Of a stretch of DNA of 64,000 nt, positions 10,693 through 64,000 are shown piece after piece. The DNA comes from Squalus acanthias (taxonomy: Eukaryota). The stretch lies in contig CM059448.1 of assembly GCA_030390025.1 (NCBI GenBank), positions 12,586,001 through 12,650,000 of the forward strand, in the 5' to 3' direction. Positions within the stretch are counted from its first letter, which is position 1; each line of letters opens with the position of its first letter. The position numbers and the translations under genes are program-made. Under the pieces are notes generated by a model. The model did no database searches. It had not been told where the DNA came from and was given only the letters and a program-made list of their open reading frames with translations.

Positions 10693-11151
10693 AGCTCAGC
10701 GGAAGCTCGAGGAACAGCACCTCATCTTTCGTTTAGGCACTTTACAGCCTTCCAGACTCAATATCGAGTTCAACAATTTCAGATCATAACCCCGGCCCCT
10801 ACCACATATATATACATTTTATCCACCCCTTTTGGTCCGTGCCTTTTTCCTTTTTTTACTCTCTCTCCCCCTACGGCAGCTGTCTCTCATTCTGCCAGCA
10901 TTTCACACTTCACCTTTTGTTTCTTAACCTGTCCCATTACCATCTCGTCTTGCCTTGAGCATCTCTTAATGTCTCTACTTACCATAGACCACCCCTTTTG
11001 TTCTTTTATTCCTCCCCCTTGCATTGTTATCTGTTTAATTTCCTGCTCTTCTCAGTTCCGACGAAGGGTTTCGACCTGAAACGTTAACTCTGTTTCTCTC
11101 TCCACGGATGTTGCCTGGCCTGCTGAGTTTTTCCAGCGTTTTTCTGTTATT
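10693..11151 (+). mobile_element. Penelope-like element 3' part: GIY-YIG endonuclease C-terminus, 3' UTR and degenerate hammerhead, with 12-bp TSD
   Basis: 10694-10789 encodes AQRKLEEQHLIFRLGTLQPSRLNIEFNNFRS*, the E..LI..LGTL.P..LN end of PLE GIY-YIG domains. Flanked by TAGGATATCCTA at 10681-10692 and 11152-11163. Hammerhead-like motif at 11054-11089. Confidence 0.85.
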
Positions 11152-13070: not shown

Positions 13071-13537
13071 GAAAAAGACTTGCATTTATTTAGCGCCTTT
13101 TACGACCACTGGACGTCTCAAAGCGCTTTACAGCCAATGAAGTACTTTTGAAGTGTAGTCACTGTTGTAATGTGGGAAATGCGGCAGCCAATCTACGCAC
13201 AGCAAGCTCCCACAAACAGCAATGTGATAATGACCAGATAAACTGTTTCTATGTTCTGTTGATTGAGGGATAAATATTGGCCAGGACACCGGAGAGAACT
13301 CCCTGCTCTTCTTCGAAATAGTGCCATAGGATCTTTTACATCCACCTGAGAGGGCAGACGGGGCCTCGGTTTAATGTCTCATCCGAAAGACGGCACCTCC
13401 GACCAATGCAGCACTCCCTCAGCACTGCATTGGAGTGTCAGCCTAGATTTATTGTGCTCAAGTCCCTGGAGTGGGACTTGAACCCACAACCTTCTGACTC
13501 GGAGGCGAGGGTGCTACCCACTGAGCCACAGCTGACA
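13071..13537 (-). mobile_element. Full-length tRNA-derived DeuSINE (SacSINE1/AmnSINE1-like)
   Basis: Minus strand: tRNA-like head with A box (TGGCTCAGTGGG) and B box (GGTTCAAGTCC), central Deu-domain, L2-like 3' tail ggcgctaaataaatgcaagtc. Confidence 0.9.
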
Positions 13538-15264
13538 CAATTGCAATGACAAAGGCACAATTTCCCCCCACCGCCCCCACCCCTCGTAGCATAAACGTGG
13601 CGCAAAACTGTTACGAGCACGTTGCTGCTGCTGCTGCTTCAGCCCACTCCCCAGCCCATAAAGGTGAAACGTAACTTTGTCATGCTAGTGTTCATAAAGC
13701 ATCAACAATTCCCACCGGACACTTATTTGCAGGGTCTCATTTGCAGGGGATGCGGAGACTGTCTGGCACACCACCTCGTGACATCGGCAGAGCCTCTGGA
13801 GCAGGTTGCCCTCTCGGCTGGAGATGAAACACAACAGGAGGAGAGCCCAAGAAACGGGAAGGGGAGAAAATACATTTTTGGAGGTGGGGAGGGGAGGAGG
13901 AGGAGCAGGAGAGCGAGTTGGGGGAGTCTTGCCCTGTAAGAGGAACAGAAGTTATGGGGAGCGCACAATTTTATTTTGGGTTAAACTATACCATTTATAC
14001 AAATAAGAATCTTGGAGTGAAAGAATATAAAATGTTGTACATTGACAGCCAATTACTGTGTTGCCAGAAGCTGAGGAGCAGCAGCCTCACCCCCTACAAA
14101 CCCTTCCTCTGGGCCATTCAGTACAGCGTCATTCCAGCCCAGTTGGAAGCTTTCATTGATGTCTTTCATCTCTGAGCTGTTGGCACTCTCAGAGCTGTTG
14201 GGCGTCCTGTGTTCCTCCTTGTTTTCTCTGCAGCAAACTGCTGGCGTGAAACCCCCCTCCCTTCCTCGAGTGCACAGCGCCCCTCCCCACCCCGCCTCGG
14301 GGAGGCTGTTGCTTCATAGTACAGTAGTTGAAATTAAAAAAGAGCATGTCCCATCGTGGCTGTCGTTTGAGGGTGAGCTCAGGGCAATTTGCTGCAGCCT
14401 GTGCGGTCACACTGGGAAATGCTGTCTTGTTCCCAGCAGCAGCTGGAGAGCATCAAAAATTAAACCTCCCCTTTTCGGTCGCGTGTTAAATGAATACAAA
14501 AAATATATATAAATTGGCGCTGCAAGATTTGTAATGGGATTATTCTGAGTTACATTCTCGCTGTCAAACCTGTGTTCCCCTTCCTCCCCCAATCCACTGC
14601 AGACTCTTGAGATGAGAATTAAATGGGACTGTTCATGAATAACTTACCACTATCATATTTTCCTCTGCTTTGTGCATGTACTTTGTCTAACTTTAATTGT
14701 TAATGAAATGAGATTGAGAATCTTGGTTAGGAGGCATTATCTATGCTGCAGCATATATATTGCATCTTGCGTAATTGTACTTGCATACGAACATTAATTT
14801 TATGGAGATAGTTTCTGACTGAATAGTACAATTATACAAAAGCTTTCAAATCCCAGAGTGATCTTTCAATTCATGTAACTTGAATTATTTATCTTTTTTA
14901 TTTTCCATTTTGTTGGACAACCTCTTCATTTCTGCTTCATTTTGAAGCCATTTCAAGGCCTCCTCCATGTTGTACAGTGGTAGCTGAGGCCAGGCCAATG
15001 ATTGAGCCATCCCCCTCAGCCACCTGACTCCTGTCAGATTGCGCCAACTGAGTCTGACTTTCCGCAGACGCTGATTCACTGGTGATTTTAGCGTTGAATG
15101 CCGATTTAAAAAAAGAAACAAACCCTGTGAGAGACCCATCAATATACTTGCGAATTTTTGAGTGCCAAGGCTGGATCCTTAAAACATTTTTTAAACTAGT
15201 TGCTCTAATTCTGCTGGTGAATTAGCTTGGGTTCCAAGAACCACCTCCAAGTCACACACCATCC

Positions 15265-15477
15265 TGAGAAGTCGTACAACACCAGGTTATAGTCCAACAG
15301 TTTTATTTGAAATCACGAGCTTTCGGAGCGCTGCTCCTTCGTCAGGTAAAGTGGACGAAGTCACCTGACGAAGGAGCAGCTCGTGATTTCAAATAAAGCT
15401 GTTGGACTATAACCTGGTGTTGTGCGACTTCTCATTTTTGTCCACCCCAGTCCAACACCGGCATCTCCGCATCACAT
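15265..15477. mobile_element. Penelope-derived inverted pLTR pair (family A) with 14-bp TSD
   Basis: gagaagtcg...cgtcaggt is mirrored by acctgacg...cgacttctc, followed by a ~35-nt tail gtccaccccagtccaacaccggcatctccgcatca. TSD ACACACCATCCTGA (15254-15267) / ACACACCATTCTGA (15478-15491). Confidence 0.85.
15313..15349 (-). ncRNA. Minimal type-I hammerhead ribozyme motif (PLE family A)
   Basis: Minus strand reads UUAC-CUGACGA-A-GGAGC agc GCUCC-GAA-AGCU-C-GUGA: core boxes, stem II, palindromic AGCU stem III and closing stem I. Confidence 0.65.
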
Positions 15478-17894: not shown

Positions 17895-19016
17895 TGCGTT
17901 AACATGAATGCTGCCAACATCAGACATCTGATCCTTCTCGAGCTGGCTGCACTCCATGTAAGAAACTGACTGGCACTGCGGACCCAACGATCTGCTGTTA
18001 AGCCCACCCATTCCTGCAAAGTAAATGCAGGAAGACCATCACTCTCTTCCACCCACCCTGCCCCAGACATGTGCTGTCTGTTGAGCAACTGGATCTGAAC
18101 ACCATGCAGTGGAGCCCAACAGCACTGTAGAGATAGACACTCCGTGTCAAGTCATGGGTGATGGTTGCGGGGAGAGGGGGGGGGGACAGAGAGTGATGCA
18201 AAGATGATGTTCCCTGGGGACCATTTCAGCCGGTAAGCGTAGAAGTGCTTTCTAATTCCGCAGTTTTAAAATAAGAAATTTGGCGCAGGGCCCAGTGAAA
18301 CTCCTGGCAATCCCGATATTCCAGAATCTGGGAGTAACCATAGTCTCTTTATTTTCTCTTTACCAATTTCAGCTGGTACACTGAGCACTCCTTAGAATAG
18401 AATTGGTCCTTGCTTTTAAGGTGTAGATGACTTCACTAAAGAGCTGTAACTAGGCTAATTACCAAGGCTGTTCTTCTGGAGACTTAATATTCAATTAAAA
18501 TCAACTAATTTGCCCTGATCTTTTTTGGGAATGTGATCCAATTAGGAGAATTGGTGCCGTTCTTTTTTTTTAATGATGTGCCTGAGCTAAGTTTGGATCA
18601 GACTGTGGTAAGTTCGTGCTGGCGGCTTTCCCAACACTTCTTGGCCCAGCATTGCAACCTGGTGCCTAATCTTGTTGCTCCTTTCCTGCTCGTGCACAGC
18701 CTGACTTTTTATAAAGTTTCCTGCTTGCGCCAGCTTCGGAGCTGGATTTAAAAAGTTGAAAGAACTTGCATTCGTATAGCGCCTTTCACAACCTCGGGAC
18801 GTCCCAAAGCGCTTTCCAGCCAATGCAGTACTTTTTGTGAAGCGCAGTCGCTCTTCCTGCAGTGTTGGAATCAGGGTGGGGGTTAAGAATAGGTATTGGC
18901 TTGATGTTCCAACATTCGCTTTGCTGCTAATGAAAATTTATTAAAACCCTGTTAATAACTCAATTTTCCACACAAGACACCAATAAATGGCGAGGGAGTG
19001 GATTTATAGATTTTTA

Positions 19017-19236
19017 AACAAAAAGAAAATACTGCGGATGCTGGAAATCTATAATAAAAACAGCAAATGCTGGAGATACTCAGCAGGTCAGGCAGCATCT
19101 GTGAAGAGAGAAACAGAGTTAACGTTTCAGGTCTGACGAAAGGTCATCGACCTGAAACGTTAACTCTCTTTCTCTCTCCACAGATGCTGCCTGACCTGCT
19201 GAGTATCTTCCAGCATTTTCTGTTTTTATTATAGAT
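19017..19236. mobile_element. Penelope-derived inverted repeat pair (family B) with hammerhead core at the centre
   Basis: ~90-bp arms (aaatctataataaaaacagc...gttaacgtttcaggtc / gacctgaaacgttaac...gtttttattatagattt). Flanked by ttatagatttttaaa / ttatagattttaaa. Same family as the 3' end at 11054-11151. Confidence 0.85.
19133..19165 (+). ncRNA. Minimal hammerhead core (PLE family B)
   Basis: CUGACGA-A-AGGUC auc GACCU-GAA-ACGU-U-AACU. The 5' strand of stem I is replaced by the inversion junction. Confidence 0.55.
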
Positions 19237-21199: not shown

Positions 21200-21580
21200 A
21201 AGCTGCAACATACCGCAGAAGCAGGAACTCCTGAAACTGAAAAGCTGGAAACACTCAGCAGGTCAGGCAACATCTGTGTAAAGAGAAACAGATAAGATAT
21301 TTTGGATGTGGGCCCTTCATCAAAACTCAAATGTTCCACAGGTGAACAGCATTTTAAAAAGGAACAGTTCAAGGGGAAGTGGTGGGGGGTGGGTGGAAGA
21401 GAATAAAAACCATACACAGGGAAATAAAAAAATATAATGACATGTAATGTGCTTAATGGTGAACGGGGGATGGTTAAATGGCAGAGTTTGATGGTAACGA
21501 TCCAAGAAATAAAAGACATTTACGAGACAAGAATGTGACTGGCTGAAGGGGTGGGGGACAGGCAGGTAGAACGGGAAGCA
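21200..21580 (-). mobile_element. Diverged Penelope-like 3' UTR (family B related)
   Basis: gctggaaacactcagcaggtcaggcaacatctgtg...cccttcatcaaaact matches the family B end, followed by purine-rich UTR sequence. The right boundary is approximate. Confidence 0.6.
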
Positions 21581-22856: not shown

Positions 22857-23318
22857 AAGAAAGACTTGCATTTATATAGCGCCGTTCACGACCACCGGAC
22901 GTCTCAAAGCACTTTACAGCCAATGAAGTACTTTTGGGAGTGTAGTCACTGTTGTAATGTGGGAAACACGGCAGCCAATTTGCGCACAGTAAGCTCCCAC
23001 AAACAGCAATGTGATAATGGACCAGATAATCTGTTTTTGTTATGTGGATTGAGGGATAAATATTGGCCCAGGACACCGGGGGTAACTCCCCTGCTCTTCG
23101 AAATAGTGCCGTGGGATCTTTTAGATCCACCTGAGAGAAGACTGGGCCTCTGTTTAACGTCTCATCCAAAAGACGGCACCTCCGACAGTGCAGCACTCCC
23201 TCAGCACTGCACAGGAGTGTCAGCCTAGATTTTTGTGCTCAAGTCCCTGGAGTGGGACTTGAACCCACAACCTTCTGACTCAGAGGCGCGTGTGCTACCC
23301 ACTGAGCCACAGCTGACA
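22857..23318 (-). mobile_element. Full-length DeuSINE (SacSINE1-like)
   Basis: Highly similar to 13071-13537. Tail aaagaaagacttgcatttatatagcgcc, head ...cccactgagccacagctgaca. Confidence 0.9.
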
Positions 23319-30558: not shown

Positions 30559-31022
30559 TGTCAGCCAGTGGCTCAGTTGGTAGCACCCTCGCCTCTGAGT
30601 CAGAAGGTTGTGGGTTCAAGTCCCACTCCAGAGACTTGAGCACAAGAATCTAGGCTGACACTCCCAGTGCAGTGCTGAGGGAGTGCTGCACTGTCGGAGG
30701 TGCCGTCTTTCGGATGAGACGTTAAACTGAGGCCCTGTCTGCGCTCAGGTGGACGTAAAAGATCCCATGGCACTATTTTGAAGAAGAGCAGGGGAGTTAT
30801 CCCCGGTGGCCTGGCCAAAATTTCTCCCTCAATCAACATCATAAAAACAGATTATCTGGCCATTATCACATTGCTGTTTGTGGGAGCTTGCGGTGCGCAA
30901 AATTGGCTGCCGCGTTTCCCACATTACAACAGTGACTCCACTTCAAAAAGTACTTCACTGGCTGTAAAACGCTTTGAGACGTCCGGTGGTCGTGAAAGGC
31001 GCTATATAAATGCAAGTCTTTT
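30559..31022 (+). mobile_element. Full-length DeuSINE (SacSINE1-like)
   Basis: tgtcagccagtggctcagttggtagcac head ... aggcgctatataaatgcaagtcttt tail. Confidence 0.9.
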
Positions 31023-31977: not shown

Positions 31978-32066
<89 letters not shown>

Positions 32067-32197
32067 AGATGCTCCTTTAAAAGCTACCTCTTCGATCAAG
32101 CTTTTGGTCATCTGTCCTGATCTCTCCTGTGCCTCCGTGTCAAAAATGTTGTTTTATTGATATCGCTGCTGTTAACATTTGAGATGTTTTACTACGT
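31940..32197 (+). mobile_element. L2 LINE 3' fragment containing an expanded C-run/(CT)n microsatellite (31970-32065)
   Basis: taagatgctcctttaaaagctacctcttcgatcaagcttttggtcatctgtcc matches the reverse complement of the adjacent L2 copy. The two copies are tail-to-tail. Confidence 0.75.
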
Positions 32198-32745
32198 CAA
32201 CAACAACAACTTGTATTTATATAGCGCCATTAACAGCGTAAACGGTCCCAAAGCGCTTCATACGAGTATTATAAGATGAAAAAATTTGACACCGAGCCAC
32301 ATAAGGAGAAATTAGGGCAGGTGACCAAAAGCTTGGTCAAAGAGGTAGGTTTTAAGGAGCGTCTTAAAGGAGGAAAGAGAGGTGGGGAGGCGGAGAGGTT
32401 TATGCAGGGAATTCCAGAGCTTAGGGCCCAGGCAACAGAAGGCACGACCACCAATGGTGGAGCGACTTATAATCAGGGATGCTCAAGAGGGCAGAATTAG
32501 AGGAGCGCAGATATCGGTGGGGGGGAGGGAGGGTGTGGGGCTGAAGGAGATTACAGAGATAGGGAGGGGCGAGGGCATGGAGGGATTTGAAAACTAGGAT
32601 GAGAATTTTGAACTCGAGACGCTGCTTAACCGGGAGCCAATGTAGGTCAGCGAGCACAGGGGTGATGGGTGAACGGGACTTGGTGCGAGTTAGGACACGG
32701 GCAGCCGAGTTTTGGATGACATCAAGTTTACCTCGGGTAGAACTT
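32198..32745 (-). mobile_element. L2-clade LINE 3' part
   Basis: ORF 32421..32825(-) contains LDVIQNSAARVLTRTK...ITPVLADLHWLPVKQRLEFKI...APPYL (L2 RT C-terminus). 3' tail ggcgctatataaatacaagttgttgttg. Confidence 0.9.
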
Positions 32746-41873: not shown

Positions 41874-41986
41874 AAAACAAAAGCAAAATGCTGGAGATCT
41901 GTAATTAAAACCAGAAAATGCTGGAGACGCTCGACGTCAGTGAAGAGAAACAAGAGTCACCGTTTCAGGACGATGACCTTGCATCA
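41874..41986 (-). mobile_element. Diverged Penelope family B 3' end
   Basis: aaatgctggagatctgtaattaaaaccagaaaatgctgg...cgtttcaggacgatgaccttgcatca. Confidence 0.6.
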
Positions 41987-43792: not shown

Positions 43793-43897
43793 CAAAAGCC
43801 AGATGCTGGAAATCTGAAATAAAAACCGAAAATGCTGGAAATACTCAGCAGATCAGGCCAGCATCTGTGGAGAGAGAAACCAAGTTAACGTTAGCAT
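43793..43897 (-). mobile_element. Penelope family B 3' end inserted in a DeuSINE, 14-bp TSD
   Basis: gatgctggaaatctgaaataaaaaccgaaaatgctgg...gttaacgtt flanked by AATTACCTTTGAAA (43779-43792) / AATTACTTTTGAAA (43898-43911). Confidence 0.75.
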
Positions 43898-45098: not shown

Positions 45099-45468
45099 CT
45101 GACACTCCTATGCAGTACTGAGGGAATGCTGCACTGTCGGAGGTGCCGTCTTTCGGATGAGATGTTAAACCGAGGCCCTGTCTGCGCTCTCGGGTGGATG
45201 TAAAAGATCCCAAGGCGCTGTTTTGAAGAAGAGCAGGGGAGTTATCCCCGGTGTCCTGGCCAATATTTATCCCTCAATCAACATAACAAAAACAGATTAT
45301 CTGGTCATTGTCACATTGCAGTTTGTGGGAGCTTGCTGTGTGCAAATTGGCTGCCGCGTTTCCTACATTACAACAGTGACTACACTTCAAAAGTACTTCA
45401 TTGGCTGCAAAGCACTTTGAGACGTCCGGTGGTCGCGAAAGGCGCTATATAAATGCAAGTCTTTCTTT
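45099..45468 (+). mobile_element. 5'-truncated DeuSINE inserted in CR1
   Basis: ctgacactcc...ggcgctatataaatgcaagtctttcttt. The CR1 sequence aactcactacc|..ggagtggttgaagcg resumes across it. Confidence 0.88.
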
Positions 45469-47940: not shown

Positions 47941-48332
47941 AGTTTAGAAGAATGAGAGGGGATCTCATTGAAACGTATAAAATTCTGACAGGGCTAGACA
48001 GGCTGGATGCAGGGAGGATGTTTCCCCTGGCTGGGGGGGTCTGGAATGAGGAGTCACAATCTCAGGATACGGGGTAGGACATTTAGGACTGAGATGAGGA
48101 GAAATCTCTTCATTCAGGGTGGTGAACCTGTGGAATTCTCGACCACAGAAGGCTGTGGAGGCCAAGTCACTGAATATATTTAAGGAGATGATATAGATTT
48201 CTAGACACAAAAGGCATCAAGGGGTATGAGGAGAGAGCGGGAATATGGTATTGAGATAGAGGATCAACCATGATCACATTGCATGGCGGAGCAGGCTCGA
48301 AGGGCTGAATCATCTCCTCCTATGTTTCTATG
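47941..48332 (+). mobile_element. CR1 (HER1-like) LINE 3' fragment
   Basis: agaagaatgagaggggatctcattgaaacgtataaaattctg (RRMRGDLIETYKIL) ... cctatgtttctatg. Confidence 0.9.
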
Positions 48333-50488: not shown

Positions 50489-51054
50489 TAGGGTTGCCAT
50501 TGCCAACCCTCCAGGATTGGCCTGGAATCTCCAGCAATCGCAGATTAATCTCCAGGACACTGCTGCGAGCAACTCTGGAGAAAAATCATTGGGGCATCAA
50601 AGAAAATTGTGTTTTCCATTTTCTTTGAACACTTCACCCGGCCTAAACCTCTCCACCTCTCTTCCTTTAAGACGCTCGTTAAAACCTACCTCTTTGACCA
50701 AGCTTTTGGTCATCTGCCCTAATTTCTCCTTGTATGACTCGGTGTCACATTTTCTGTCTTGTAATACTCCTGTGAAGTGCCTTGAGACATTTTAACTATG
50801 TTAAAGGTGCTATATAAATACAAGTTGTTCTGTTTATTAGTTATAAAAATATTGGAGATAGGGAAAGAAAGCTGCTTGACTGACCATCCAGTTGGGTAAT
50901 GGAGAGTCTTTTAGTTTTGCAATTGGTGTGGGATGACGGTGTGCCGTGAGGATGGACATGTTGGGCAACCAATGGAGGGAGCAGGGCGGTGGAGGAAGGA
51001 GGTCATGTGGTGATAACCTCCCAGGAATATGGCCACCCGGAGTTGGCAACCCTA
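50489..51054 (+). mobile_element. hAT-superfamily MITE with TAGGGTTGCCA TIRs and perfect 8-bp TSD, containing an L2 3' fragment (~50637-50830)
   Basis: TIRs TAGGGTTGCCA ... TGGCAACCCTA. TSD CCTCTGGA at 50481-50488 and 51055-51062. Confidence 0.9.
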
Positions 51055-51870: not shown

Positions 51871-53695
51871 TGCAATGGCCCCTCTCCTCTGTACTGATCT
51901 TTCATTTCTACTTTTCCAGTTATTTTTAGACTTGTATATTTCGAGTCCGAGTTAAGTTGGAATTGGATTAGTCTTGACAGACTTTTGAAGTTCTAAATTG
52001 AGCCAGTAGAATATTCAAGTCTTACAGGAAAGGGGGCGGTCATTTGGCCCATTGTGCCTTTGCCAGCTCTGAGCTGTCCACTTAGCCCCCCCATTCACCT
52101 AACCTTTGCTAAGGCCCTTCCTATTTTTTTTCTTCAATTATTTGTCCACTCTTAATATCTTGAGTCTGCTTGCAACACTGTATCTGGATATTCAATGTCC
52201 CAACAACCCGCTGCCTGTTTAAAAATATATTTTTGTAAACACTCTTTGTTCTTTTGGCAATCTTAACTTGTGTGTTCCATTTGCCCCAAAGGTGAACCCA
52301 CAAATCTTACCCTAGTATCACGCAGTGGTCTTGCGTTTAAACACTAAATTTAAGCCAACCTGTGTTTGCTATTTTGATTTTTAATTCACCAGAGGTTTTC
52401 CAAAAAGGCCATCTGGTCCAATAAACCTTCCTACTTTATGATGGATTTTAACCCCACCTAATTGTGTATTTGAACTCATTGATACTGTTTGCTTCAACGA
52501 CTTTTGCCTGTAAATGATTTCACAAGCCTTACTACCTTTTTTTTGTGTTTAAAAATGTTACCGCGCCTTCCCTTCTTGCTCCCAACATCCTCATTGGTTG
52601 CCCTGGCATTTAATACTCGCGTTGCTTGGAGTTTGTAACTCCAAAATAGCAGTTCAGGCACTATAAAGGAGTACGGTTTGTTATATAATGACGGCAGATT
52701 TTGATGCAGCTTGTTCAAGGTGGTTGTGGTGATTTTTAATGATCTGCGCCTTTTTCAAGGTACTAATCTATAACTAAGGGAGCAACAAGAGAGATTTCAA
52801 GTTGAAGGAAATTCAATTTATCAGCAGCGTTTGGAGCCGATGCACAAAAGTGCCGCAGGGTGCCTCGTTCCATAGTTGGGACAATGTGTTGAAAGACAAT
52901 GTTTCGGACATGTGATACTGGGCATCCAAATAGATTTCACAGTCCAGGCAGTTGGGGTTCCCTGCACGGTTATTACAGCAGCTCTTGGTCGAAGGGAAAC
53001 CAGCCACCTCTTTCCAAAGGGGGCGGGGTGTCAGCTGCAGAGAATACACAGATCATAGTGGGATATGACTCACCAGACCAAAAGGCGAGCCCAACTTTCA
53101 TGTAGCAGATGGTTTGCACATTTACTACACGTGGCAGAGGGTTTAAAAGCACTGGCACCGCAACACAACACCACTGTTTCATTCAGTCTGTGTGTGGAGA
53201 AACAATTACCCACTGGCCAGGCAGGCAGCAAGCAGTGAGGCGGCCCTGTTATTTACATGACATCTGAGGCACTGTTGCTGGCTTTCAGCTCTGGATAAAC
53301 TTATTCTAGTGCTCAAATCTTTCAGGTCAAAACACTTCATTTTAAAATAAGAAGGGTCTGCAAATAAAAATAGATTAAACATGCCATAACTGTTCCACTC
53401 TGAAGACCTCTTTTTTTTTTCCCTGTTGGAATGTAACAACAACTTGCATTTCTCTAGCGCCTTTTAATGTAGTAAATCACCCCCAAGGCGTTTCACAGGA
53501 ACGTTATCAAACCCAATTTGACACCGGGCTACGTAAGGAGATATTCGGACTGGTGACCAAAAACTTAATCAAAGAGACGAGTTTTAAGGAACATCTTAAA
53601 GGAGATATGATGTGGCGATGCCGGTGTTGGACTGGGGTGGACAAATGTGAGAAGTCGCACAACACCAGGTTATAGTCCAACAGCTTTATTTGAAA

Positions 53696-53732
53696 TCACA
53701 AGCTTTCGGAGCGCTGCTCCTTCGTCAGGTGA
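53696..53732 (-). ncRNA. Minimal type-I hammerhead ribozyme motif (PLE family A), antisense to TRAF4
   Basis: Exact reverse complement of 54317-54353. Confidence 0.65.
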
Positions 53733-53761
53733 AGTGAAGAGATGCATATAGTCACAGCATA

Positions 53762-54186
53762 CAGGAAACTTTCGTTTATCCGGCATCGACGGGACCGGCG
53801 TGGTGCCGGTTTATTGAAAGTACCGGATAACAGAGAGTTATATCTACCGAGGCTATTTTTAACAAAGAGACTCCAAGCAGCACGGGAGAATCTACTCATG
53901 CGACTGCAATGTTTCGGACTTGCGACAGCGCCAGGAGGCCGAGTAGTGGCAATTTTGAAAAGTACCCCTACTGACTAAATCGGCGTTCGCGGACTCGGAC
54001 TCGGACTCGGGATCGGCAACATTGCCGGTTATTTGAGAGGATTTTTCGGAGCACTCGGCGTTCGCGGAGACTCGACTGCGACTCGGCAACATTGCCGGTT
54101 ATTTGAGAGGAGTTTTCGGAGGATGATTTTTGCCGGTTAAGCGAGAATTCCGGATATTTGGGTGCCGGATAAACAAAAGTTTCCTG
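53762..54186. mobile_element. Tc1/mariner-superfamily (pogo/Tigger-like) MITE, 425 bp, TA TSD
   Basis: 24-bp TIRs CAGGAAACTTTCGTTTATCCGGCA / TGCCGGATAAACAAAAGTTTCCTG (1 mismatch). TA at 53760-61 and 54187-88. Internal ~70-75-bp tandem duplication at 53980-54123. CpG-rich. Confidence 0.9.
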
Positions 54187-54316
54187 TATATAGTCAGAGA
54201 ACACTGCCAGATGATTACACCTCCAGGTGTGATAAAGGGCAGTTGGAAAGATTAACTGTAATCATCTGGCAGTGTTCTCTGACTATATATGCTGTGCCTA
54301 TATGCATCTCTTCACT

Positions 54317-54353
54317 TCACCTGACGAAGGAGCAGCGCTCCGAAAGCTTGTGA
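54317..54353 (+). ncRNA. Minimal type-I hammerhead ribozyme motif (PLE family A), sense to TRAF4 intron 2
   Basis: UCAC-CUGACGA-A-GGAGC agc GCUCC-GAA-AGCU-U-GUGA. Predicted cleavage after 54349. Confidence 0.65.
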
Positions 54354-54551
54354 TTTCAAATAAAACTGTTGGACTATAACCTGGTGTTGTGCGACTTCTC
54401 ACATTTAAAGGAGATAGAGAGAGGGGTTTGAGGAATTCCAGAACTTGGGGGCCTAGACAGGTGAAAGAAATCTGGCAAAGCTTTAATACATTTTTTTCAC
54501 AAAGAAGTGCAATCCAGCTTCCTAATGACGGTCTCTGTTAAGATTCAATTA

Positions 54552-54928
54552 TCATTGAAACTTATAAAATTCTAACAGGACTAGACAGACTAGATGCAGG
54601 AAGGATGTTCCTGATGGCGGGGGAGTCCAGAACCAGAGGTCACGGTCTAAGGATAAGGGGTAAGCCATTTAGGACTGAGATGAGGAGGAATTTCTTCACC
54701 CAGAGAGTGGTGAACCTGTGGAATTCTCTACCACAGAAGGCAGTTGAGGCCAATTCATTAAATATATTCAAGAAGGAGTTGGATATATTTCTTAAGGCTA
54801 AAGGGATATGGGGAGAAAGCAGGGACAGGGTACTGAATTTGGATGATCAGCCATGATCTCATTGAATGGCGGAGCAGGCTCGAGGGGCCGAATGGCCTAC
54901 TCCTGCTCCTATCTTCTATGTTTCTATG
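54552..54928 (+). mobile_element. CR1 (HER1-like) LINE 3' fragment
   Basis: ORF 54605..54856 SRTRGHGLRIRGKPFRTEMRRNFFTQRVVNLWNSLP plus 3' UTR and (TTCTATGT) tail. Confidence 0.92.
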
Positions 54929-58933: not shown

Positions 58934-59708
58934 TGTCAGCTGTGGCTCAGTGGGTAGCACACTCGCCTCTGAGTCAAAAGGATGCGGGTTCAAGTCCCAC
59001 TCCAGAGACTCGCGCACAAGAATCTAGGCTGACACTCCAGTGTAGCGCTGAGGGAACGCTGCACTGTCTGAGGTGCTGTCTTTCAGATGAGACGTTAAAC
59101 CGAGGCCCCGTCTGTCCTCTCGGGTGGACGTAAAAGATCCCGTGGCACTATTTTGAAGAAGAGCAGGGGAGTTCTCCCCGGTGGCTTGGCCAATATTTAT
59201 CCCTCAATCAACATCACTAAAACAGATTCACACAGAATCCCCACAGTGCAGATAGAGGCCATTTCGGCCCATCGAGCCTGCACCGACAAATATCCCACCC
59301 TATCCCCGTAACCCCACGTATTTAATCCCCCCTAACACTAAGGGTCAATTTATCATAGCCAAATCAACCTAATCCGCACATCTTTGGACTGTGGGAGGAA
59401 ACCGGAGCACCCAGAGGAAACCCACGCAGACACGGGGAGAATGTGCAAACTCCACACAGACAGTCACCCGAGGCCGGATTCGAACCCGGGTCCCTGGCGC
59501 TGTGAGGCAACAGTGCTAACCACTATGCCACCGTGTTGCCCTAGTCATTATCACATTGCTGTTTGTGGGAGCTTGCTGTGCGCAAATTGGCTGCCACGTT
59601 TCCTACATTACAAGTGTGACTACATTTCAAAAGGGACTTCATGGGCTGCAAAGCACTTTGGGACGTCTGGTGGTCGTGAAAGGCGCTATAGAAATGCAAG
59701 TGTTTCTT
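58934..59708 (+). mobile_element. Full-length DeuSINE interrupted by an HE1 SINE
   Basis: Head at 58934. The consensus aaacagatt|..gtcattatcacattgc is split at 59228/59542. Confidence 0.9.
59229..59541 (-). mobile_element. Full-length HE1 / V-SINE
   Basis: Minus strand GGGCAACACGGTGGCATAGTGGTTAGCAC...GGGTTCGAATCC (A/B boxes), V-domain, CR1-like tail gggccgaaatggcctc...gattctgtg. Confidence 0.92.
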
Positions 59709-62959: not shown

Positions 62960-63488
62960 TCATAGAATCTTAGAAAGTTACAGCACGGAAGGAGGCCATT
63001 TCAGCCCAAAGAGCTATCCAGCCTAATCCCACTTCCCAGCTCTTGGTCCGTAGCCCTGCAGGTTAGAGCATCCCAAGTGCACATCCAAGTACTTTTTAAA
63101 TGTGGTTAGGGTTCCTGCCTCTACCACCCTTTCAGGCAGTGAGTTCCAGACCCCCACAACCCTCTGGGTGAAGAAATTTCCCCTCAAATCCCCTCTAAAC
63201 ATTCCCCCAATTACTTTAAATCTGTGCCCCCTGCTTTTTGACCCCTCTGCTAAGAGAAATAGGTCCTTTCTTTTTACTTTATCTAGGCCCCTCATAATTT
63301 TATACACCTCAATAAGGTCTCCCCTCAGCCTCCTCTGTTCCAAGGAAAACAGACCCAGCCTATCCAGTCTTTCCTCATAGCTAAGATTCTCTACTCCTGG
63401 CAACATCCTTGTAAATCTCCTCTGTACCCTCTCTAGTGCAATCACATCTTTCCTGTAATGTGGTGACCAGAACTGCACGCAGTATTCT
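62960..63488 (-). mobile_element. CR1 LINE 3' part with open RT C-terminal frame
   Basis: ORF 63023..63478(-) QFWSPHYRKDVIALERVQRRFTRMLPG...RRLRGDLIEVYKIM...FFTQRVVGVWNSLP, followed by the 3' tail ttctaagattctatga. Confidence 0.93.
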
Positions 63489-64000
63489 GCATTTCCAGTT
63501 GCTGAATAGGGAGGGGTGCTTCACTTAAAATTATTCAACATTTATAAATGAGCTTTAAGTAAGAGATTCCCCTATGATTTGGTTGGTAAGTGTCCTACCC
63601 AGTGTGGAACCGAACCAGACAGACCAGGTTTGATCCCTGAGCTACATTACGTTAGCTGATCTCAGCCAAGGCTACAACTGGCCCAGCTCTCCTGATCAGG
63701 CTTTGATTATCATCCAGGAACCCCTCCTGTTACTGTTAGCTGGACCTATGGGGAGAGAGTGCACTCTCTGTTGAGAAAATGGACTCTGCATGTCTAGAAT
63801 CTCAATGGCTTGTTATGAAAACTCTTCCACATGGTGATTAGTTTCTACAGGTGTCAGATATCCTACTGCGCTCCCCCTCCCCAAACCCTCCCAAAGAAAA
63901 TTGCTGGAAAATGCTTGCTGGATCAGAAGAACTATATCCTAGCAACAAGCAATAACCTCCTGGAAATGAGGGGAGAAAGCTGGAGGGAATAATGGTTGTC

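What the first reader, a model, noticed from the sequence alone, without database searches (positions are those of the whole stretch)
53696..54353. Back-to-back minimal hammerhead ribozyme motifs on both strands in TRAF4 intron 2
Seen: each arm contains UCAC-CUGACGA-A-[GGAGC/GCUCC]-GAA-AGCU-U-GUGA. This gives the hammerhead core boxes, a 5-bp stem II, a 4-bp stem I and a loop-less palindromic stem III (AGCU), with an extra A after A9. Known: PLE terminal repeats encode minimal type-I hammerheads that are thought to cleave as dimers through palindromic stem III. Inference: these ORF-less hairpin units could be a non-autonomous, ribozyme-processed retroelement class in sharks. In the TRAF4 pre-mRNA the sense ribozyme would probably be locked in a long dsRNA stem with the other arm, which could explain why it is tolerated.
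Basis: partly seen in the sequence, partly recalled or inferred. Interest (0 to 1): 0.75.

Follow-up and report, generated by a model that had tools for sequence, protein, structure and literature searches.

The report
Penelope retroelement foldback with twin hammerheads
The two mirror-image ribozyme motifs are real, but they are one end-piece of a very abundant jumping gene, likely a Penelope-like retrotransposon, pasted in twice head-to-head in a single insertion; that layout is already described in other animals, and the motifs are predicted to be inactive in this intron.

Summary
Observation confirmed: identical minimal hammerhead motifs at 54317-54353 (+) and 53696-53732 (-), in a TRAF4 intron. 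They sit in the two arms of one insertion (53608-54404) bounded by a 12-bp target duplication, with a 37-nt tail on one arm only, a palindromic head-to-head junction, and a later 425-bp MITE. That is the published signature of 5'-truncated Penelope-like elements (PLEs) with an inverted pLTR; the extra A, the palindromic stem III and opposite-strand pairs are all in Cervera & De la Pena 2014. The family has thousands of contigs in three species, but the hairpin apex is near single-copy and differs between copies, so the hairpin is not the unit that spreads: the 'new hairpin class' is not supported. Duplex locking in pre-mRNA is supported by folding only. Within the family the core shows no excess conservation (6/37 vs 22/143 variable sites). 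Cleavage and the link to an RT/GIY-YIG ORF were not testable. Best extra: neither arm contains the other and they differ at common family alleles, suggesting two RNA templates per insertion. This scan reported the same kind before, in this and other genomes.

The parts
53596..53607 (+). Left target-site duplication, 12 bp (TTAAAGGAGATA)
   Evidence: Exact direct repeat with 54405-54416; a paralogous copy of the host repeat at 32190-32480 runs through this site with one copy
53608..53644 (-). 37-nt AC-rich 3' tail, present on this arm only; predicted to pair back with the sequence just downstream of the hammerhead
   Evidence: same tail on one arm of the copy at 15265-15477; tailed and tail-less ends both recur as loose ends at 54401-54407 in all four runs
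53608..53761 (-). Tail-bearing arm, outer part (pLTR-like 3' end of the element)
   Evidence: 98% complementary over 119 nt to 54288-54406
53696..53732 (-). Minimal type-I hammerhead motif, copy on the minus strand; predicted cut 53700/53699
53762..54186 (.). 425-bp MITE, 24-bp terminal inverted repeats starting CAG, TA duplication (53760-61, 54187-88); later insertion into the TATA-like run of the left arm; Tc1/mariner-pogo type by recalled criteria
   Evidence: removing it makes the left arm continuous with 54187-54219
54187..54219 (-). Tail-bearing arm, inner part; 5'-truncated at the position equivalent to 54257
   Evidence: 33 of 33 complementary to 54257-54289
54217..54230 (.). Head-to-head junction: 6-bp palindrome around a 2-nt centre, with a 3-nt microhomology (54217-54219) and a 3-nt fold-back filler (54220-54222)
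   Evidence: Read from the sequence; near single-copy depth at 54220 (table 4)
54223..54404 (+). Tail-less arm; 5'-truncated at 54223-54225, family sequence continues upstream in other copies; 3' end 54404-54406
   Evidence: depth 1e5-7e6 from 54226 to 54407, loose ends before 54223-54225 in all four runs
54284..54318 (+). Putative pLTR promoter: TATA-like run at 54284-54290 and initiator-like TCACTTC with A at 54314, 30 nt apart
   Evidence: Sequence; T54290A, which improves the TATA match, is 38% and 45% in runs X11, X17; same TATA plus TCACT pair described for a rotifer pLTR (PMC3846280). Activity untested
54317..54353 (+). Minimal type-I hammerhead motif, sense to TRAF4: stem I 54317-20/54350-53, core 54321-27, extra A 54328, stem II 54329-33/54337-41, GAA 54342-44, palindrome AGCU 54345-48, U17 54349
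54405..54416 (+). Right target-site duplication
   Evidence: in runs X11 and X17 a single-copy 471-nt contig aligns from 54550 back to exactly 54405 and no further (table 8)
53435..53607 (+). Older host repeat (left part; continues after 54416) that the element interrupts
   Evidence: About 71-75% identical paralogues at 32202-32372 and 50663-50829
15265..15477 (.). Second, independent foldback insertion of the same family: hammerhead 15313-15349 (-), second motif at 15361 (+) with an 11-nt deletion, tail on the right arm, different apex, 12-bp duplication with one mismatch (15254, 15478)

Best explanation
The locus is one retrotransposon insertion, likely a dead 5'-truncated Penelope-like element (PLE), in which the hammerhead-bearing end was copied twice and joined head-to-head between 12-bp target duplications, and a MITE later landed in one arm. 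Shown: arms, duplication, one-sided tail, junction palindrome, MITE, large multi-species family, two recurrent 3' ends, non-shared apex. Inferred mechanism: a PLE RT/GIY-YIG complex cut both target strands 12 bp apart; the top-strand nick primed cDNA from the tail end of an element RNA, the bottom-strand nick primed cDNA from the internal start 37 nt upstream, probably on a second RNA molecule (about 0.55 for this step); both stopped early and were joined through a short fold-back and a 3-nt microhomology. The hammerhead works, if at all, in the source element's tandem RNA as a dimer or with protein help (from the literature; untested here). At this locus it is a passenger, predicted to be locked in a 152-bp duplex and possibly edited by ADAR.
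For: Target duplication with an empty paralogue. Tail on one arm only in all 3 foldbacks examined in the window, from two unrelated families. Tailed and tail-less ends recur in four runs (table 7). These match the PLE descriptions in PMC8557442 (inverted 5'-truncated copy, 30-40-bp tail at one end) and PMC3846280 (inverted pLTRs, 8-10-bp duplication, 31-bp tail, junction palindromes, TATA plus TCACT). PMC11167929 shows a PLE protein cutting and extending both strands and starting RT at two sites that delimit the tail. Motif traits match PMC4209133 (extra nucleotide 9/10.1, G10.1-C11.1, palindromic 15.2-16.2, pairs 100-700 bp apart on opposite strands). Apex near single-copy; four other joints inside the inner arm region, each one contig, read as other apices (tables 4, 5). 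Two templates: neither arm contains the other (37-nt tail versus 32-34 extra 5' bases); the arms differ at 2 of 152 sites and both alleles are common in the family (54297 A 11%, 54365 G 33% in X1); the arms of the second copy differ at the 54365 site too. Folding.
Against: No RT/GIY-YIG ORF could be tied to this family: none in the window, no genome held, five collection scans empty, peptide search empty. The 12-bp duplication is longer than the 8-10 bp in the rotifer paper. Within the family the hammerhead is not more conserved than the rest (6/37 vs 22/143 variable sites, Fisher p=1.0), no compensatory pair reaches 4%, and the catalytic G12 is A in 6-11% of depth in three genomic runs. Rfam does not score the motif. 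The two-template step rests on 5 substitutions in two loci, and the window's species may not be organism A (62% of words shared). All runs were contigs, so no RNA end at 54349/54350 could be sought.
Confidence: 0.87

Rival explanations
1. One reading: the ORF-less hairpin is itself the mobile unit, a non-autonomous ribozyme-processed class.
For: No ORF at the locus; two foldbacks of the family in 64 kb; thousands of contigs per run.
Against: Apex differs between copies (54219/54225 versus 15353/15361); depth at 54220 is 235, 0, 0 in X1, X11, X17 against 6e5-1.4e6 nearby; family sequence runs on upstream of the apex; both motifs are predicted unfolded in a hairpin RNA on either strand, so such an RNA could not process itself.
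Confidence: 0.04
2. The source RNA is a non-autonomous PLE derivative (retrozyme-monomer or SINE-like unit) moved in trans by a PLE protein; the foldback is still made at insertion.
For: No ORF link found; retrozymes of 363 bp mean consensus length and their derivation from pLTRs are reported, including one chondrichthyan (bioRxiv 10.64898/2026.07.22.740005, parts 1-3 read); both arms of the second copy stop at the initiator-like site (54313, 54317 equivalents).
Against: No head-to-tail tandem here; the failure to find an ORF reflects missing data, not absence; family sequence extends at least 90 nt upstream of the initiator and further.
Confidence: 0.22
3. Same insertion, but made from one template by self-priming (fold-back) of a single strand, as proposed for rotifer Penelopes, with later trimming.
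For: Palindromes at both junctions are what PMC3846280 reads as self-priming; both arms of each copy share the subfamily letter at position 17 (U in one, C in the other).
Against: A single strand copied onto itself cannot give each arm sequence that the other lacks without extra steps; arm differences fall on common family alleles (3 of 5 substitutions; about 4e-4 under uniform mutation, an assumption that overstates significance).
Confidence: 0.3
4. A domesticated intronic ribozyme or RNA element regulating TRAF4, like the conserved amniote intronic hammerheads.
For: Sense motif is intact in the pre-mRNA.
Against: Orthologous site appears empty in two related species (records 16 and 24); arms 98.7% identical, hence young; inserted in another repeat; no partner for a dimer nearby (the other sense copy at 15361 is deleted); predicted duplex.
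Confidence: 0.02
5. A foldback DNA transposon or long-TIR MITE that happens to contain the motif.
For: Long inverted repeats and a target duplication.
Against: Ends are not symmetric (tail on one side), inner ends vary, most family contigs are not tied to one apex.
Confidence: 0.02

Closest known systems
Minimal hammerheads (min-HHR) of metazoan PLE pLTRs (Cervera & De la Pena 2014, PMC4209133; parts 1-2 of 4 read, supplement passages)
   Same: Type-I topology, 4-bp stem I, extra nucleotide between 9 and 10.1, G10.1-C11.1, no stem III loop with palindromic 15.2-16.2, thousands of dispersed ORF-less copies, opposite-strand pairs 100-700 bp apart; supplement legend S4A has a 5'-truncated PLE with a second motif on the opposite strand; the lamprey row has the same UCAC/GUGA stem I.
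   Different: Stem II is 5 bp (7-8 in Schistosoma). No shark or Callorhinchus in the supplement text searched (file 1 not searchable). U at position 17 in this copy.
EN+ Penelope-like elements with inverted pLTR and tail (Penelope/Poseidon, Neptune; PMC3846280 passages and Discussion, PMC8557442 passages, PMC8969392 passages)
   Same: Head-to-head inverted 5'-truncated copies, 30-40-bp tail at one end, target duplication, junction palindrome, TATA plus initiator motif.
   Different: No ORF left; 12-bp duplication; clade cannot be assigned without the RT.
PAc, Poseidon element of Anolis (Frangieh et al. 2024, PMC11167929; parts 1-2 of 4 read)
   Same: Hammerhead followed by an AC-rich stem-loop with two ends that delimit a tail; AT-rich target.
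   Different: In PAc the ORF starts inside the hammerhead; here all three frames from the core close before the tail (read from the sequence).
Non-LTR retrozymes (bioRxiv 10.64898/2026.07.22.740005, parts 1-3 of 5 read; PMC7229834 seen as listing only)
   Same: ORF-less, type-I hammerhead, pLTR-related, present in a chondrichthyan.
   Different: Defined by head-to-tail tandem units; this locus is head-to-head with no same-strand pair.

Membership tests
PLE min-HHR | Core boxes CUGANGA and GAAA..UH with stems I and II | tested here: met
PLE min-HHR | Extra nucleotide at 9/10.1, G10.1-C11.1 pair, palindromic minimal stem III | tested here: met
   A54328, G54329-C54341, AGCU 54345-48; criteria from PMC4209133
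PLE min-HHR | Stem covariation between families | tested here: met
   8 of 11 pairs change on both sides over 4 distinct rows from only two families; one row's stem I is cut by its own junction
PLE min-HHR | Excess conservation or compensatory changes within the family | tested here: not met
   6/37 vs 22/143 variable sites at >=4% in any of four runs, p=1.0; G12A 6-11%; no compensatory pair. 3 of the 6 sites are tolerant positions (N7, loop II, H17)
PLE min-HHR | Self-cleavage as dimer or with protein | not testable with these tools
   Needs bench assay; only contigs were offered. Double-hammerhead and two monomers are near equal in computed energy (-19.1 vs -20.0 kcal/mol)
EN+ Penelope-like element | 5'-truncated copies in inverted (head-to-head) arrangement | tested here: met
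EN+ Penelope-like element | 30-40-bp tail at one end only | tested here: met
   37 nt, 53608-53644; two end classes
EN+ Penelope-like element | Short target-site duplication | tested here: met
   12 bp with empty paralogue and apparent empty orthologues
EN+ Penelope-like element | pLTR linked to an ORF with telomerase-like RT and GIY-YIG endonuclease | tested here: inconclusive
   None in the window; no genome; scans and peptide search empty
Non-LTR retrozyme | Head-to-tail tandem units each with a hammerhead | tested here: not met
   Motifs are on opposite strands; no same-strand tandem in the window
Non-LTR retrozyme | Circular RNA intermediate | not testable with these tools
   No raw RNA reads offered
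Proposed hairpin-unit class | Shared apex and inner structure among copies | tested here: not met
   (tables 4, 5)

The most novel reading that the evidence does not exclude
Each foldback is a fossil of a two-template insertion: a PLE protein dimer primes both target strands on two different RNA molecules, one at each RT start site, and joins the two cDNAs by fold-back and microhomology. With two families and probably thousands of young foldbacks per genome, these genomes would let the open question of how inverted pLTRs and tails form be tested from sequence alone, and the intronic duplexes would be a large ADAR substrate class akin to inverted Alus.
Probability: 0.45. Interest if true: 0.5.

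Novelty: new member of a known kind. Interest (0 to 1): 0.22.

Why it matters
As a ribozyme or a class of element it is ordinary: a further family of PLE minimal hammerheads, in a lineage for which my searches found no explicit description, though the library lacks most subscription journals and Repbase/Dfam were not searchable. Its value is as material: PMC8557442 calls the origin of PLE inverted structures and tails undefined, and these short young foldbacks record both priming events. If arm pairs sample two family alleles, that favours two-template priming over single-strand self-priming.

Tried and rejected
Rfam scan of the window: no hammerhead family among 14 matches; the miRNA-family hits are generic hairpins far below gathering score. 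Whole-genome search: no genome held. Family patterns in metagenome contigs (2 scans), viral contigs (2) and prokaryote genomes (1): all empty. Pfam scan of 150 open frames (the 146 longest of 209 frames of 75 aa or more, plus 4 chosen at the element): only TRAF zinc fingers passed cut-off. Peptide search from the arm against longer proteins: nothing, weak evidence. Earlier-findings look-ups by sequence and by nearby place: nothing. Local folding z-scores of the motif are not significant (-0.5, -0.8), as expected for an open core. The ratio of RNA-guess to DNA depth rises near 54304-54317 and shows no step at the cut site, but contigs cannot show starts or ends, so it is not used. Run X1 has no cover at 54473-54550 (55% read), so presence or absence of this insertion in organism A is undecided. 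Lunse et al. 2016 (dimer cleavage) is not held; seen only as cited in PMC6765202 passages. Searches for Penelope with twin priming (2 listings, not opened) and with ADAR editing (1 listing, not opened) showed no paper on the point by title or abstract start. bioRxiv supplements were closed and may list the chondrichthyan families.

Full report
OBSERVATION. Both motifs are present as described, identical, at 54317-54353 (+) and 53696-53732 (-). A relaxed descriptor finds 4 motifs in the window against a mean of 0.02 in 200 shuffles. Rfam has no hammerhead among its 14 matches at E<=10.

ANATOMY. The motifs lie in inverted arms, 53643-53761 and 54288-54406 (119 nt, 98%), continued by 54187-54219 and 54257-54289 (33 of 33). 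Between the two left pieces is a 425-bp MITE with 24-bp terminal repeats and a TA duplication, a later insertion. The whole unit, 53608-54404, is flanked by a 12-bp direct repeat, and a paralogue of the surrounding older repeat runs through the site with one copy, so this is one insertion with a target duplication. The left arm has 37 extra bases at its outer end (tail); the right arm has 32-34 extra bases at its inner end. The junction 54217-54230 is a 6-bp palindrome with a 3-nt microhomology. A TATA-like run and an initiator-like word lie 30 nt apart just before the hammerhead. A second copy of the family at 15265-15477 is also a foldback with a duplication and a one-sided tail, but a different apex. 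An unrelated hammerhead family at about 19016-19228 has the same build with an 11-bp duplication.

THE FAMILY. Laying four public runs, all contigs, on 54187-54550 at 80% likeness gave 10632, 2389, 4208 and 4155 contigs (X1 and X6 organism A, X11 organism D, X17 organism G; X1 55% read; X6 only guessed to be RNA). Summed depth is no copy number. Cover is collinear on plus from 54225 to about 54407, so the hairpin 'loop' is ordinary family sequence and the family goes on upstream. Two kinds of 3' end recur: with the tail, and ending at 54402-54407 into unrelated DNA. Depth at the apex base 54220 is 235, 62, 0 and 0, against 6e5-1.4e6 at 54255 in the three genomic runs; four other joints from the inner left arm to the right arm, one contig each, read as other apices (inference). 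In X11 and X17 a single-copy 471-nt contig aligns from 54550 to exactly 54405 and leaves 70 letters unaligned, which I read as an empty orthologous site; those letters were not shown. So the hairpin is made anew at each insertion and this one is young.

CONSERVATION. Sites with a variant of 4% or more in any run: 6 of 37 in the motif, 22 of 143 in the rest (p=1.0). The motif is less variable than the 27 bases just upstream (13 sites, p=0.012) and no less than the 51 downstream (3 sites). Three of the six are tolerant positions (N7, loop II, position 17); at two CpG sites the tolerated change is common (10-18%, 12-15%) and the damaging partner is under 4%; but G12A, also a CpG change, is 6-11%, and a stem I change (10% in X1) has no compensating partner. 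Between the two families in the window, 8 of 11 pairs change on both sides with the core kept, which is two lineages, not many events. Selection on the fold is thus visible between families and not demonstrated within this one.

MECHANISM. Published PLE insertions are 5'-truncated, often with an inverted copy joined head-to-head and a 30-40-bp tail at one end (PMC8557442, passages), with 8-10-bp duplications, junction palindromes and a TATA plus TCACT pair (PMC3846280, passages and Discussion). The Anolis PLE protein cuts and extends both target strands and starts reverse transcription at two sites that delimit the tail; its hammerhead cleaves only with protein and is not needed for insertion in vitro (PMC11167929, parts 1-2). 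I infer that here one nick primed cDNA from the tail end and the other from the internal site, and that the truncated products were joined by a short fold-back and microhomology. Neither arm contains the other, which a single self-copied strand cannot give without more steps. The arms differ at 2 of 152 sites, both common family alleles (11% and 33% in X1), and the arms of the second copy differ at one of the same sites; this suggests two RNA molecules, on small numbers. The junction palindromes also fit the self-priming view of PMC3846280, which I keep as a rival.

AT THIS LOCUS. The 831-nt transcript folds at -458 kcal/mol (z -22); the hammerhead fold has probability about 1e-48 on either strand, against 0.025 for the arm alone. 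This is an equilibrium model, and the antisense arm is transcribed first. Run X6 shows A>G at 54300 (14.8% vs 0 in X1), 54302 (11.2 vs 0.01), 54379 (9.0 vs 0.2) and T>C at 54322 (7.7 vs 1.1), a pattern that fits ADAR editing of family RNA; X6 is a different sample and only guessed to be RNA, and A>G at 54300 exists in the DNA of the two other species, so this is a lead.

COMPARISON AND VERDICT. It works like, and by four structural criteria files under, a truncated EN+ PLE insertion with a min-HHR; the defining ORF link is inconclusive here. It fails the tandem criterion of non-LTR retrozymes. The extra A, palindrome and opposite-strand pairing are all in PMC4209133. Searches found no paper describing shark PLE hammerheads explicitly; a whale shark preprint notes expanded intronic PLEs (10.1101/443036, passages) and a 2026 preprint covers one chondrichthyan. 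Earlier notes of this scan reached the same kind of verdict on other pieces of this genome and other genomes; they are unchecked and I formed my reading before seeing them. New member of a known kind; interest 0.22. The two-template reading is the part worth a genome-wide test.

Noticed in passing
window 15265-15477: Second foldback of the same family, inserted in another repeat; its 7-nt junction filler (15354-15360) is the complement of nearby arm sequence; both arms stop at the initiator-like site; in both window copies the tailed arm has G and the tail-less arm A at the 54365 site.
   Followed up: yes
window 19016-19228; partial copies at 11052-11151, 21234-21292, 41875-41969, 43802-43892: A second, unrelated minimal-hammerhead family (palindrome ACGU) with the same foldback, one-sided tail and 11-bp duplication; the 11053 copy has a core change.
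   Followed up: partly
window 53762-54186: CpG-rich (38 CpG) 425-bp MITE with an internal 70-bp duplication, single in this window, inserted in the TATA-like run of the left arm; family not identified.
   Followed up: partly
window 54300, 54302, 54322, 54379 (run X6): A>G and T>C excess in the presumed RNA run, and far fewer CpG-decay variants than in DNA (G12A 0.3% vs 6.1%); may reflect editing and transcription of young copies.
   Followed up: partly
window 54363-54367: The G allele at 54365 makes a second AGCU word 19 nt after stem III that is predicted to pair with it; it could compete with dimer formation.
   Followed up: no
window 13073-13539, 22860-23318, 30559-31021, 45099-45468, 58934-59708 and others: An abundant repeat of about 460 bp, about 90% identical between copies; its start resembles the start of the host repeat at 53435.
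   Followed up: no
window 32048-32390: Inverted pair of the host repeat family forming another long hairpin (source of the top Rfam miRNA-like hits).
   Followed up: no
window 54552-54928, 47965-48321, 63023-63520: Fragments of one repeat family whose open frames look like a CR1-type LINE 3' end (recalled resemblance; no Pfam hit).
   Followed up: no
window 1-39595: No TRAF4 first coding exon found by motif search, so the first intron may exceed 39 kb or the exon is diverged.
   Followed up: partly
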